Below, piece by piece: positions 4,030 to 7,080 of a stretch of DNA of 64,000 bases. Positions within the stretch are counted from its first letter, which is position 1. Each line of letters begins with the position of its first letter. This DNA comes from Escherichia coli (GTDB lineage Bacteria; Pseudomonadota; Gammaproteobacteria; Enterobacterales; Enterobacteriaceae). The notes beneath the pieces were generated by a model. That model did not search any database. It was not told where the DNA came from and was given only the letters and a program-made list of their open reading frames with translations. The stretch lies in the NCBI RefSeq assembly GCF_030013595.1, contig NZ_CP122769.1; one strand, given 5' to 3'. The translations under genes and the position numbers were made by a program.

Positions 4030-4701
4030 ATGAATGCTATACAAAAGTTAGTTGAATCTATTCTTGTTAAAATGGGTTTTGTTGGCGCTGTAGTGGAAAA
4101 TATATATTTGGATTCAAAACCATTTCGGCATATTCGATTTGTGGCTGATATTCCAGTAATATCTTTTCTACCTCATTTGGTGAAATATCTTAAGGGTGCA
4201 GACCATCTTTACAGTGGTAACGATGATTTGCATCCTCTTTTCATTTATTTTTCCGAAGCGGCTACATTAAAAGCAGGTCCTGTAAATCTCGCGAACTTTC
4301 GTTTTGAAGTTTCTATAGCTTCAACTCATTTACGACTGGTCTCAGAGCAGCCTGATTTGCTTTTCAAAGGATTTAACCGGGATAATCTAGAATACGTTTA
4401 TTACCGCTCAGATTTGGCCTCTAGGGATCTTATACTAGGCCTTGTTGAACACGGTTCTCCTTTCATAAAACATCTACATGGACTTATACAAAAGCGAATT
4501 TTAAACGAGTTCTCTCTGATTTTTTCTGTTCTTGAAAAGATTTTAGAAAGCGCGAAGCCACAAATTCTTGCTTGCTTCCATAGTGTTGATTATGAAATGA
4601 ACGTAAAAATAATAGCCGAAGCTATACCTGAAACTGTATCTAATCAGATAGTCACATCTGATTATATAGTTAATGTTAGCGCCAATGATATAAGACTGTA
4701 A
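4030..4701 (+). CDS. hypothetical protein, paralogue family member 3; 3' end probably truncated by IS insertion
   Basis: N-terminus KLVESILVKMGF fits family; stop codon 4699-4701 abuts the IS21-family terminal inverted repeat. Confidence 0.5.
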   Translation: MNAIQKLVESILVKMGFVGAVVENIYLDSKPFRHIRFVADIPVISFLPHLVKYLKGADHLYSGNDDLHPLFIYFSEAATLKAGPVNLANFRFEVSIASTHLRLVSEQPDLLFKGFNRDNLEYVYYRSDLASRDLILGLVEHGSPFIKHLHGLIQKRILNEFSLIFSVLEKILESAKPQILACFHSVDYEMNVKIIAEAIPETVSNQIVTSDYIVNVSANDIRL

Positions 4702-4774
4702 TTCGCCATTTGGGTTGTCCGCTCCACCCAACATGTTGTTTCCTTGAGGTTCTCACACCAGAAAGGACATCGAC

Positions 4775-5947
4775 ATGCTGAGCAGAGAGGACTTTTACAT
4801 GATAAAGCAAATGCGTAAGCAGGGTGCGTACATTGTCGATATTGCAACTCAGGTGGGTTGCTCTGAGCGCACCGTCAGACGCTATCTTAAATATCCTGAG
4901 CCCCCGGCCAGGAAGACACGCCACAAAATGGCCAAACTGAAGCCATTCATGGACTATATCGACACTCGTCTGGCTGAGAACGTCTGGAATGGCGAGGTCA
5001 TCCTCGCGGAAATTAAAGCGATGGGTTACACCGGCGGGCGCTCCATGCTGCGCTACTACATCCAGCCCAAACGCAAAATGCGGCCATCAAAGAAAACAGT
5101 CCGCTTCGAGACCCAGCCCGGTTACCAGCTGCAGCATGACTGGGGGGAAATCGAAGTGGAGGTCGCGGGACAACGATGCAAAGTTAACTTCGCGGTTAAT
5201 ACGCTGGGGTTCTCACGTCGCTTCCATGTCTTCGCCGCACCAAAGCAGGACGCTGAACACACCTATGAATCCCTGGTTCGCGCCTTCCGCTACTTCGGTG
5301 GCAGTGTGAAAACGGTGCTGGTTGATAATCAGAAAGCTGCAGTGCTGAAAAATAACAACGGAAAAGTGGTGTTCAACTCCGGGTTCCTGTTGCTGGCCGA
5401 CCACTATGACTTCCTGCCACGGGCCTGCCGCCCGCGCAGGGCCAGAACCAAAGGCAAAGTGGAGCGGATGGTTAAATATCTTAAGGAGAACTTCTTCGTC
5501 CGGTACCGCAGGTTCGACAGCTTCGCCCATGTTAACCAACAGCTGGAGCAGTGGATGGCTGATGTGGCTGACAAGCGGGAGCTTCGTCAGTTCAGACAGA
5601 CACCAGAACAACGCTTCGCGCTGGAACAGGAGCATCTGCAGTCGTTGCCGGATACGGACTTCGATACCAGTTACTTCGACATCCGCCATGTCTCCTGGGA
5701 CAGCTATATCGAGGTTGGCGGCAATCGTTACAGTGTTCCCGAAAACCTGTGCGGGCAACCAGTCTCAATACGTATATCGCTGGATGATGAGTTGCGGATC
5801 TACAGTAATGAGCAGCAGGTAGCCTCACACCGGCTCTGTTCAGCATCATCTGGCTGGCAGACGGTACCGGAGCACCATGCCCCGCTCTGGCAGCAGGTCA
5901 GCATGGTTGAGCATCGCCCACTGAGCGCTTATGAGGAGCTGCTGTGA
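4775..5947 (+). CDS. istA: IS21-family transposase IstA
   Basis: 390 aa; N-terminal HTH and DDE-type core typical of IstA; 4-nt overlap with istB. Confidence 0.85.
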
Positions 5948-6744
5948 TGCATGAACTTGAAGCACTGCTGAGCCGCCTGAAAATGGAGCACCTGAGCTAT
6001 CACGTTGAAACCCTGCTGGAGCAGGCAGCGAAAAAAGAGCTGAACTACCGGGAGTTCCTGTGTATGGCGCTGCAGCAGGAATGGAACGGCAGGCATCAGC
6101 GTGGCATGGAGTCCCGGCTGAAGCAGGCTCGCCTGCCATGGGTCAAAACGCTGGAGCAGTTCGACTTCACCTTCCAGCCAGGTATCGATCGTAAGGTTGT
6201 CCGGGAGCTGGCTGGGCTGGCGTTCGTGGAGCGCTGCGAGAATGTGATCCTGCTGGGACCTCCTGGTGTTGGTAAAACCCATCTGGCTGTTGCTCTCGGT
6301 GTAAAAGCAGCAGATGCGGGGCACAGAGTACTCTTCATGCCACTGGACAGGCTGATCGCCACGCTGATGAAAGCGAAACTGGAAAACCGGCTGGAGCGCC
6401 AGCTACAACAACTGAGTTATGCCCGGGTGCTGATCCTGGACGAAATAGGCTATCTGCCGATGAACAGAGAAGAAGCCAGCCTGTTCTTCCGGCTACTGAA
6501 CCGTCGATATGAAAAAGCGAGCATCATCCTGACGTCAAATAAAGGCTTCGCAGACTGGGGAGAAATGTTCGGGGATAACGTGCTGGCAACGGCGATCCTG
6601 GATCGGCTACTGCATCACTCAACCACACTAAATATCAAAGGAGAAAGCTATCGGTTAAAGGAAAAACGCAAAGCCGGAGTGCTGGCCAAAAACGCAACGC
6701 CAATCAGTAATGATGAAATGGCGGAAAGCGGACAGCAAAAGTGA
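5944..6744 (+). CDS. istB: IS21-family ATP-binding helper IstB
   Basis: Walker [12 protein letters not shown] and Walker B LILDEIGY. Confidence 0.9.
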
Positions 6745-6775
6745 TCAAATAGCGGACATTAAAAATGGCGAAAAC

Positions 6776-7080
6776 CGGCCATAAATCTTGGCGTTGACAT
6801 TAATTCTATATCAGATGCGGACAAGTTTATAAATCATGTTCGTCGCTATTTAGCAGGCAGGGTAATGAAGAGGCGGATATACGCTGAATTAGATGTTTGT
6901 GAAGAAACATCAAGTATTTCACTAGTGAACTTAGGATGCTTTACGTCTCCTCTGCTCGTTACGGAATATCAAATGTTTAAGCCACACTCTTCAGGGTTAT
7001 ATCGAAAAGCTATAAACAACTCCTTAAAACAGTTCAAACCAGAAATGCATGTACCTTCTGAAGAACTCTTTTATAATTAA
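6776..7080 (+). pseudogene. possible 3' remnant of the IS-disrupted paralogue
   Basis: Frame is open from the IS right end (6776) through ORF 6865-7080; followed by the same type of hairpin as other family members. Confidence 0.3.

What the first reader, a model, noticed from the sequence alone, without database searches (positions are those of the whole stretch)
4699..7080. IS21-family element inserted at the 3' end of paralogue 3, leaving a possible downstream remnant
The stop codon of ORF 4030-4701 overlaps the IS terminal inverted repeat. After the IS the frame is open from 6776 to 7080 and is followed by the same hairpin type as other family members. This suggests one array member was split by the IS.
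Basis: seen in the sequence. Interest (0 to 1): 0.4.

Follow-up and report, generated by a model that had tools for sequence, protein, structure and literature searches.

The report
IS21-type insertion splitting a plasmid gene
A 2.1-kb jumping gene of the well-known IS21 family has landed inside a 306-codon gene of unknown function on an IncHI2 resistance plasmid and cut it into a truncated front part and an orphaned back part, which is an ordinary and recent event.

Summary
Window 4674-6799 is a complete 2126-bp IS21-family element. It has TGT...ACA ends, about 50-bp multi-repeat terminal inverted repeats, istA at 4775-5947 and istB at 5947-6744. It is flanked by a 4-bp target duplication, TTAA, at 4670-4673 and 6800-6803.

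More than 1100 IS-free IncHI2 plasmids, including R478, carry an uninterrupted 921-bp gene (306 aa, WP_000991699.1) at this position. Removing the IS and one TTAA from the window restores that gene exactly, apart from one private SNP (4424, K132R).

Three corrections to the finding:
- The IS begins at 4674, not about 4697-4699.
- The insertion lies after codon 215 of 306, not at the 3' end. ORF 4030-4701 is therefore a chimera of 215 native residues, 8 IS-encoded residues and an IS-encoded stop.
- "Paralogue" holds only relative to the upstream neighbour 3026-3961. No homology to 7147-8085 or 8257-9213 is detectable.

The shared hairpin type after each gene is real. The insertion occurs in only two Salmonella plasmid records. 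The IS is 88% identical to IS21 and 91.5% to its nearest relatives. The disrupted gene belongs to a tiny orphan family with no assignable fold. This is ordinary and of low interest.

The parts
4030..4673 (+). 5' part of the disrupted 306-codon gene (codons 1-214 plus the first two bases of codon 215), homologue of WP_000991699.1
   Evidence: Identical to IS-free L001 3031-3674 except for the SNP at 4424.
4030..4701 (+). Chimeric truncated ORF of 223 aa: 215 native residues, then VSANDIRL and a stop codon read from the IS left end. RefSeq annotates it as an ordinary hypothetical protein, WP_272815992.1.
   Evidence: The translation diverges from the reference at aa 216. Annotation.
4424..4424 (+). 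Private A>G substitution (K132R) at a lysine that is invariant or nearly invariant in the family
   Evidence: The G allele occurs only in the 2 IS-bearing records out of 1114.
4670..4673 (.). Left copy of the 4-bp target-site duplication, TTAA
   Evidence: The IS-free sequence reads ATAG-TTAA-TTCT once. Related copies show that the following T belongs to the IS.
4674..6799 (+). Complete IS21-family insertion sequence, 2126 bp, with 5'-TGT...ACA-3' termini
   Evidence: Absent from more than 1100 otherwise identical IncHI2 plasmids. The insertion adds 2130 bp, which equals 2126 + 4. It is 88.4% identical to PGAP-named IS21 and 91.5% to 2126-bp relatives.
4674..4723 (+). Left terminal inverted repeat. 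The outer repeat L1 is 4674-4696 (TGTTAGCGCCAATGATATAAGAC).
   Evidence: In-register match to the reverse complement of 6751-6799. L1 is conserved in relatives with different flanks.
4775..5947 (+). istA, a DDE transposase of 390 aa with HTH, rve and Mu-transposase C-terminal domains. A second Met at codon 9 corresponds to the start of the known 'cointegrase' isoform.
   Evidence: NF033546 scores 281.9 bits against a cut-off of 160. PF00665 and PF22483 match. 95.1% aa identity to IS21 IstA. The isoform is described in PMC10122671.
5947..6744 (+). istB, an AAA+ helper ATPase of 265 aa. Its start overlaps the istA stop (TGATG). Walker A is GPPGVGKT and Walker B is LILDE.
   Evidence: NF038214 scores 298 bits against a cut-off of 200. 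PF01695 scores 297 bits. The motifs are visible in the translation.
6751..6799 (-). Right terminal inverted repeat with internal repeats of AAATGGCG/AGCGGAC. It ends in TTGACA, a perfect outward-facing -35 hexamer.
   Evidence: D4, D7, I1, I3. No matching -10 lies in the flank.
6800..6803 (.). Right copy of the target-site duplication, TTAA
6800..7080 (+). 3' remnant of the disrupted gene (codons 215/216-306 plus the stop). The first in-frame start is ATG 6865 (M236), giving a possible 71-aa ORF. It is unannotated in RefSeq.
   Evidence: Identical to L001 3671-3951. ORF list. Annotation.
7086..7128 (+). The gene's natural 3' hairpin and T-run, of the same type as the hairpins after the neighbouring genes
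   Evidence: Fold energy -27.7 kcal/mol, z -3.99. Terminator-like site at 7100-7118. Hairpin alignment A6.

Best explanation
An intact, probably still active IS21-family insertion sequence (2126 bp; IstA DDE transposase plus IstB AAA+ helper) transposed by simple insertion into a 306-codon backbone gene of unknown function on an IncHI2 plasmid. The IstA/IstB machinery made 4-bp staggered cuts at TTAA, which straddles codons 214 and 215, and so duplicated TTAA. Three consequences follow. First, the gene's 5' part now reads 28 nt into the IS left end and terminates at an IS-encoded TAA, giving a 223-aa chimera. Second, the last 91 codons are left stranded downstream of the IS with their natural hairpin/terminator, without a promoter of their own, and without a start codon before M236. 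Third, the gene is most likely inactivated. The event is recent and lineage-specific: it is seen in two near-identical Salmonella plasmids. Shown here: the IS boundaries, the TSD, the exact restoration of the gene, the rarity of the insertion and IS21-family membership. Inferred: loss of function, neutrality and continued mobility of the IS.
For: IS-free IncHI2 plasmids differ from the window by exactly 2130 bp at this point and carry one 921-bp ORF. Excising 4675-6804 in silico restores that ORF with one amino-acid difference. The gene is contiguous in 1108 of 1115 plasmid records, including R478 (NC_005211.1). The IS is present at this site in only NZ_CP117034.1 and NZ_OY754830.1. All full-length homologues are 303-307 aa, at 32-98% identity. 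The lost C-terminus contains the best-conserved 20-residue block of the family, aa 221-240. IstA and IstB score above the curated IS21 equivalog cut-offs. The termini and the 4-bp TSD are corroborated by seven further independent insertions of 2126-bp relatives (CTGC, AGTT, TAAC, AAGG, CAGT, GATG, CGGG) and by a PGAP-named IS21 copy (ATGC). The family organisation matches PMC10122671: two ORFs, L1/L2 and R1/R2 repeats, and a terminal CA. GC content is 53.6% in the IS against 36% in the flanks.
Against: Nothing contradicts the insertion itself. The uncertain points are functional. The 215-residue N-terminal fragment could keep partial activity, because the AF2 model is only moderate (pLDDT 66.7). 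Read-through from istAB might express the 71-aa C-terminal ORF. Whether the IS is still mobile was not tested. In these collections the exact IS variant was found nowhere else at 99% identity or better, so its donor is unknown.
Confidence: 0.97

Rival explanations
1. ORF 4030-4701 is a complete gene that ends naturally at 4701, the IS sits in an intergenic space, and 6800-7080 is unrelated sequence.
For: RefSeq annotates 4030-4701 as a normal hypothetical protein and annotates nothing at 6800-7080.
Against: IS-free plasmids carry a continuous 306-aa ORF whose residues 1-215 equal the window ORF and whose residues 216-306 equal the translation of 6805-7080. The last 8 residues and the stop of the window ORF are encoded by the IS terminus, which is conserved in unrelated insertion sites.
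Confidence: 0.01
2. The IS arrived through a more complex event that removed or rearranged backbone DNA, such as a cointegrate or tandem-IS21 replicon fusion, a composite transposon, an adjacent deletion, or recombination between two IS copies.
For: IS21 elements are known to form reactive tandems and cointegrates (PMC10122671). The plasmid record has a second, weaker IS21-like match elsewhere.
Against: There is a single copy in the 64-kb window. Both flanks are collinear and 100% identical to IS-free plasmids for kilobases on each side. An intact 4-bp TSD brackets the element. A TSD and a clean empty site are the signature of simple insertion.
Confidence: 0.02
3. The insertion is adaptive rather than neutral. 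It was selected either because it inactivates a costly or host-restricting plasmid gene, or because it changes the expression of the downstream genes 7147-9213.
For: Other truncated alleles of the same gene exist in the databases: P0004 (195 aa), P0006 (169 aa, 157 member sequences) and the chimera P0015. This hints that loss is tolerated or recurrent. The IS right end carries an outward TTGACA. The only backbone SNP in about 5.2 kb lies in the disrupted gene at a conserved lysine.
Against: Only 2 of about 1115 records carry the insertion. No -10 element follows the outward -35 at 16-18 bp, and the promoter scan reports no site there. The natural hairpin/terminator still separates the remnant from the next gene. 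A single SNP carries no statistical weight, since the chance of it falling in this gene is about 0.18.
Confidence: 0.08

Closest known systems
IS21 (prototype of the family, originally from plasmid R68.45; copies labelled 'IS21-like element IS21' by PGAP, e.g. NZ_CP159210.1 86321-88450)
   Same: Same architecture: IstA of 390 aa and IstB of 265 aa with an overlapping stop/start, TGT...ACA termini, a right end finishing in GGCGTTGACA, multi-repeat TIRs, a 4-bp TSD, and a second Met at codon 9 of IstA. IstA and IstB are each 95.1% identical.
   Different: Nucleotide identity is only 88.4%, and the length is 2126 bp against 2130 bp. Under the usual ISfinder convention, recalled from memory, identity below 95% makes it a different IS rather than an IS21 isoform. 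It could not be checked against ISfinder.
Unnamed 2126-bp IS21-group element encoding WP_048213832.1/WP_048213831.1 (plasmids and chromosomes of Citrobacter, Klebsiella, E. coli, Superficieibacter, Serratia and Lonsdalea)
   Same: Same length, an identical 23-nt left terminus and 4-bp TSDs. IstA is 98.5% and IstB 97.4% identical.
   Different: There are 179 substitutions spread evenly over the element, giving 91.5% identity. A variant-specific 31-mer of the window copy is absent from 100,044 species-representative genomes.
IS5376 / IS100 and other studied IS21-family members
   Same: Same IstA-IstB two-protein mechanism, L1/L2 and R1/R2 repeats, and terminal CA (PMC10122671).
   Different: IS5376 makes 5-bp duplications (PMC10122671), whereas this element makes 4-bp ones.
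Intact IncHI2 backbone gene WP_000991699.1 (present in R478, NC_005211.1)
   Same: The window's two fragments together equal this gene apart from K132R.

Membership tests
IS21 family of insertion sequences | IstA: DDE (rve) transposase with N-terminal HTH domains and a C-terminal beta-barrel | tested here: met
   NF033546 transpos_IS21 scores 281.9 bits against a cut-off of 160. PF00665, PF22483 and HTH_23 match.
IS21 family of insertion sequences | IstB: AAA+ helper ATPase encoded immediately downstream on the same strand | tested here: met
   NF038214 scores 298 bits against a cut-off of 200. PF01695 scores 297 bits. The istA stop overlaps the istB start at 5945-5949.
IS21 family of insertion sequences | Terminal inverted repeats ending 5'-TG...CA-3' and built from multiple repeats (L1/L2, R1/R2) | tested here: met
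   The termini are TGTTAGCGCC... and ...GGCGTTGACA. The two ends match in register over about 50 bp. The CGCCA(T/A) and GTCCGCT motifs occur twice on the left and two to three times on the right. Family definition from PMC10122671.
IS21 family of insertion sequences | Short direct target duplication (4-8 bp in the family) | tested here: met
   TTAA is duplicated relative to the IS-free site. The 4-bp length is fixed by relatives whose fifth flanking base is not T (L005, L009) and.
IS21 family of insertion sequences | Length of about 2-2.7 kb, with a composition distinct from the host DNA | tested here: met
   2126 bp. GC is 53.6% in the IS against 36% in the flanks.
IS21 itself (same element or isoform) | At least 95% nucleotide identity to the reference IS (ISfinder convention, from memory) | tested here: not met
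   88.4% identity to PGAP-named IS21 copies.
IS21 family of insertion sequences | Demonstrated transposition activity | not testable with these tools
   Only indirect support: intact ORFs, intact ends and an intact TSD.
'Paralogue array' of about 300-aa genes (2077-9213) | The disrupted gene is homologous to the upstream neighbour 3026-3961 | tested here: met
   hhalign probability 96.1%, E 3.1e-9, 228 columns. phmmer E 1.5e-7. The family profile also finds P0031, whose 27% identity to the neighbour in alignment A4 suggests a relative of it, though that link was not tested for significance.
   hhalign probability 0.2%, E 0.29, and no BLASTP hit. Those two genes are paralogues of each other (27% identity, E 3e-37).
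'Paralogue array' of about 300-aa genes (2077-9213) | The disrupted gene is homologous to 2077-2955 | tested here: inconclusive
   Only an N-terminal resemblance over 66 columns, E 0.066.
'Paralogue array' of about 300-aa genes (2077-9213) | A shared 3' intergenic hairpin type | tested here: met
   Five hairpins share a common ACCCA..GGG / CCC..TGGG core.

The most novel reading that the evidence does not exclude
The same-strand run of orphan genes downstream of the Tra2/trhI transfer genes might be an IncHI2 establishment or anti-defence module. It comprises a toprim protein, the pair 3026-3961 and the split gene, and the pair 7147-8085 and 8257-9213, each followed by the same GC-rich hairpin. 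If so, the IS-split allele in the two Salmonella plasmids, with its private K132R change, would be a natural knock-out that could reveal the module's function. The evidence neither supports nor excludes this: no fold, domain or literature link was found.
Probability: 0.12. Interest if true: 0.4.

Novelty: already known. Interest (0 to 1): 0.08.

Why it matters
It matters little beyond annotation hygiene. RefSeq lists the 223-aa chimera (WP_272815992.1) as an ordinary protein and leaves the 3' remnant unannotated. Both should be one IS-interrupted pseudogene. The case gives a clean empty-site/filled-site pair that fixes the ends (TGT...ACA, 2126 bp) and the 4-bp duplication of an apparently unnamed sibling of IS21. 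It also flags a natural knock-out of a conserved IncHI2 backbone gene of unknown function, which could be used in comparative fitness or conjugation tests.

Tried and rejected
Rejected. The IS-free comparison gives a 2130-bp difference and places the junction at 4674. Position 4697 is the inner L2 repeat.
- **A 5-bp TSD (TTAAT) with a 2125-bp IS starting at G.** The window and two relatives are ambiguous because the fifth target base happens to be T. Copies L005 and L009, where the fifth base is G or C, show that the T belongs to the IS. The 5-bp reading is rejected.
- **Linking the split gene to paralogues 4/5 and to 2077-2955 by profile comparison.** Negative for 4/5 and inconclusive for 2077-2955.
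- **A hybrid outward promoter** formed from the IS right-end TTGACA plus a flank -10. No -10 lies at 16-18 bp, and the scan finds none.
- **An IstB-remnant fusion.** IstB and the remnant share a frame, but two stops (6742-6744 and 6760-6762) separate them.
- **Finding the donor of this exact IS variant.** No copy at 99% or better outside the two plasmids in PLSDB or in complete E. coli genomes, and none in GTDB representatives.
- **Rfam scan of 1-12000.** No family matched.
- **Literature search for an IncHI2 leading-region or anti-defence link.** Nothing specific to these genes.
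Full report
**What the window is.** Bases 2000-9300 are 100% identical to two Salmonella enterica IncHI2 plasmids, NZ_CP117034.1 (pig faeces) and NZ_OY754830.1. 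Except for a 2130-bp block, they are also 100% identical to many other IncHI2 plasmids of E. coli, Salmonella, Klebsiella and others. In the annotated record the region lies downstream of the Tra2 transfer genes (trhF, trhU, traN, trhI). It sits in a long same-strand run of mostly hypothetical genes that begins with an AAA ATPase, DUF3150, VWA and toprim proteins, and continues to a Tus-like protein, a tyrosine recombinase, Hha and the ter operon.

**Checking the observation.**
- The block contains istA (4775-5947, 390 aa) and istB (5947-6744, 265 aa).
- IstA matches the NCBIfam equivalog transpos_IS21 at 281.9 bits (cut-off 160). It carries HTH, rve and Mu-transposase C-terminal domains.
- IstB matches IS21_help_AAA at 298 bits (cut-off 200) and PF01695 at 297 bits.
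- GC is 53.6% inside the block against about 36% on both sides.
- The stop codon at 4699-4701 does lie within the left inverted repeat.
- The frame downstream is open from 6763 to the stop at 7078-7080.
- A stable hairpin follows 7080.

**Exact ends and target duplication.**
- The IS-free plasmid NZ_CP022165.1 (locus L001) reads ...GATTATATAG TTAA TTCTATATCAG... at the site.
- The window reads ...GATTATATAG TTAA | TGTTAGCGCC...GGCGTTGACA | TTAA TTCTATATCAG....
- The inserted DNA plus duplication is 2130 bp.
- The window alone cannot separate a 2126-bp IS with a 4-bp TSD from a 2125-bp IS with a 5-bp TSD, because the base after the right TTAA is T.
- Related copies settle it. In L005 the flanks are TAAC|T...ACA|TAACG, and in L009 they are AAGG|T...ACA|AAGGC. 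The T therefore belongs to the element and the duplication is 4 bp.
- Further copies give the TSDs CTGC, AGTT, CAGT, GATG and CGGG, and a PGAP-named IS21 copy gives ATGC.
- The IS is therefore 4674-6799, with TTAA at 4670-4673 and 6800-6803.
- The two ends match in register for about 50 bp and contain repeated CGCCA(T/A) and GTCCGCT motifs. This is the L1/L2 and R1/R2 organisation described for the family, with a terminal CA (PMC10122671).

**What was hit.**
- In L001 the site lies inside a 921-bp CDS (WP_000991699.1, 306 aa).
- Joining window 4030-4674 to 6805-7080 gives a 306-aa product identical to it except K132R.
- The insertion follows codon 215. The window ORF 4030-4701 is therefore 215 native residues plus VSANDIRL and a stop, all read from the IS left end.
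- Window 6800-7080 encodes residues 215/216-306.
- The gene is contiguous in 1108 of 1115 plasmid records that carry it, including the IncHI2 prototype R478.
- All full-length homologues, at 32-98% identity, are 303-307 aa.
- The lost 91 residues are as conserved as the rest, with a mean majority fraction of 0.68 against 0.64. They include the best-conserved block, aa 221-240. Loss of function is the reasonable inference, but it is only an inference.
- The remnant has no start codon before M236 (ATG 6865), and no promoter-like site precedes it.
- IstB is in the same frame as the remnant but is separated from it by two stops.

**The 'paralogue array'.**
- All-against-all comparison shows two pairs.
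- 7147-8085 and 8257-9213 are 27% identical, E 3e-37.
- 3026-3961 and the split gene are related weakly by BLASTP (E 3e-5) and phmmer (E 1.5e-7).
- Profile comparison supports that second pair (probability 96%, E 3.1e-9, 228 columns). The family profile also finds P0031 across the 1.84-billion-protein library. P0031 is 27% identical to 3026-3961, a link I did not test for significance.
- No relation to the 7147/8257 pair is detectable (probability 0.2%). The relation to 2077-2955 is inconclusive.
- The intergenic hairpins after all five genes do share a common core (ACCCAnTnGGGAA...TCCC..TGGG), with z-scores from -2.1 to -6.5.

**What the IS is.**
- It is a close sibling of IS21: 88.4% nucleotide identity, 95.1% identity for both IstA and IstB, and the same protein lengths, end sequences and 4-bp TSD.
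- Its nearest relatives (91.5%; IstA 98.5%, IstB 97.4%) are 2126-bp elements in plasmids and chromosomes of several Enterobacterales.
- The differences are spread evenly along the element.
- The exact variant was found only in the two Salmonella plasmids, and not in species-representative genomes.
- Intact ORFs, intact ends and an intact TSD suggest a recent simple insertion by an element that is probably still functional.

**Mechanism.** This rests on established knowledge of the family (PMC10122671 and PMC11208146, listed; the Reimmann and Haas work is cited from memory). IstA tetramers synapse the two multi-repeat ends and expose the 3'-OH of the terminal CA. IstB, an AAA+ ATPase, captures and remodels the target DNA. 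Strand transfer across staggered target positions, followed by repair, produces the short direct repeat, which is 4 bp here. The right end finishes in TTGACA. In IS21 tandems this hexamer is known, from memory (Reimmann et al. 1989), to form a junction promoter with the left end of the next copy. Here, TTGACA plus a 2-3-bp spacer plus 15 nt would reach TATAAG in the left end, consistent with that design. Against the present flank no -10 is available.

**Verdict.** It is a routine IS insertion into a plasmid backbone gene, already present in public records and annotated there as IS21-family, although the pseudogene is not flagged. Interest is low.

Noticed in passing
window 2025-2051, 2966-2993, 3972-4005, 7086-7113, 8198-8226: Each gene of the same-strand cluster is followed, about 10-110 nt after its stop, by a GC-rich hairpin with a shared core (ACCCAnTnGGGAA...TCCC..TGGG). 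Only some of them have a T-run. They could be terminators, RNA-stabilising or processing sites, or a small repeated element. No Rfam family matches.
   Followed up: partly
window 4424: A>G (K132R) at a lysine that is invariant or nearly invariant in the family. It occurs only in the two IS-bearing plasmids out of 1114 records, and it is the only backbone difference in about 5.2 kb. This is compatible with relaxed constraint after inactivation, but a single case carries no weight.
   Followed up: partly
window 4656-4673 and 6800-6816: The target TTAA, itself a palindrome, sits at the centre of an imperfect inverted repeat in the uninterrupted gene: ATCTGAT-N7-TTAA-N6-ATCAGAT. A third ATCAGAT lies at 4643-4649. 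Whether this IS prefers such sites is unknown. The other seven TSDs show no common sequence.
   Followed up: no
window 4030-4701 and 6800-7080 (RefSeq NZ_CP117034.1 52084-52755): PGAP annotates the IS-chimeric 223-aa ORF as a normal hypothetical protein (WP_272815992.1) and leaves the 3' remnant unannotated, rather than marking a single interrupted pseudogene.
   Followed up: yes
proteins P0004, P0006, P0015: Other lineages carry different truncated alleles of the same gene: 195 aa ending GFVE, and 169 aa ending TFIS (the latter with 157 member sequences). There is also a 199-aa chimera in which an AAA_5 ATPase N-terminus is fused to the last 59 residues of a homologue, which implies a multi-kilobase deletion. 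The gene seems to be dispensable in several lineages.
   Followed up: no
window 6794-6799: The IS right end terminates in a perfect outward-facing -35 hexamer, TTGACA, as in IS21. With the present flank there is no -10 at 16-18 bp.
   Followed up: yes
window 61-1206 and the record upstream: The cluster is headed by a DUF7146 + Toprim_3 protein. Upstream of that lie AAA ATPase, DUF3150 and VWA genes, just downstream of trhI. All are on the same strand. Whether this is the leading (first-transferred) region of IncHI2 was not determined.
   Followed up: no
window 7147-8085 and 8257-9213: These two adjacent genes are clear paralogues of each other (27% identity over their full length, E 3e-37). 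They have no Pfam, NCBIfam or PHROG assignment.
   Followed up: partly
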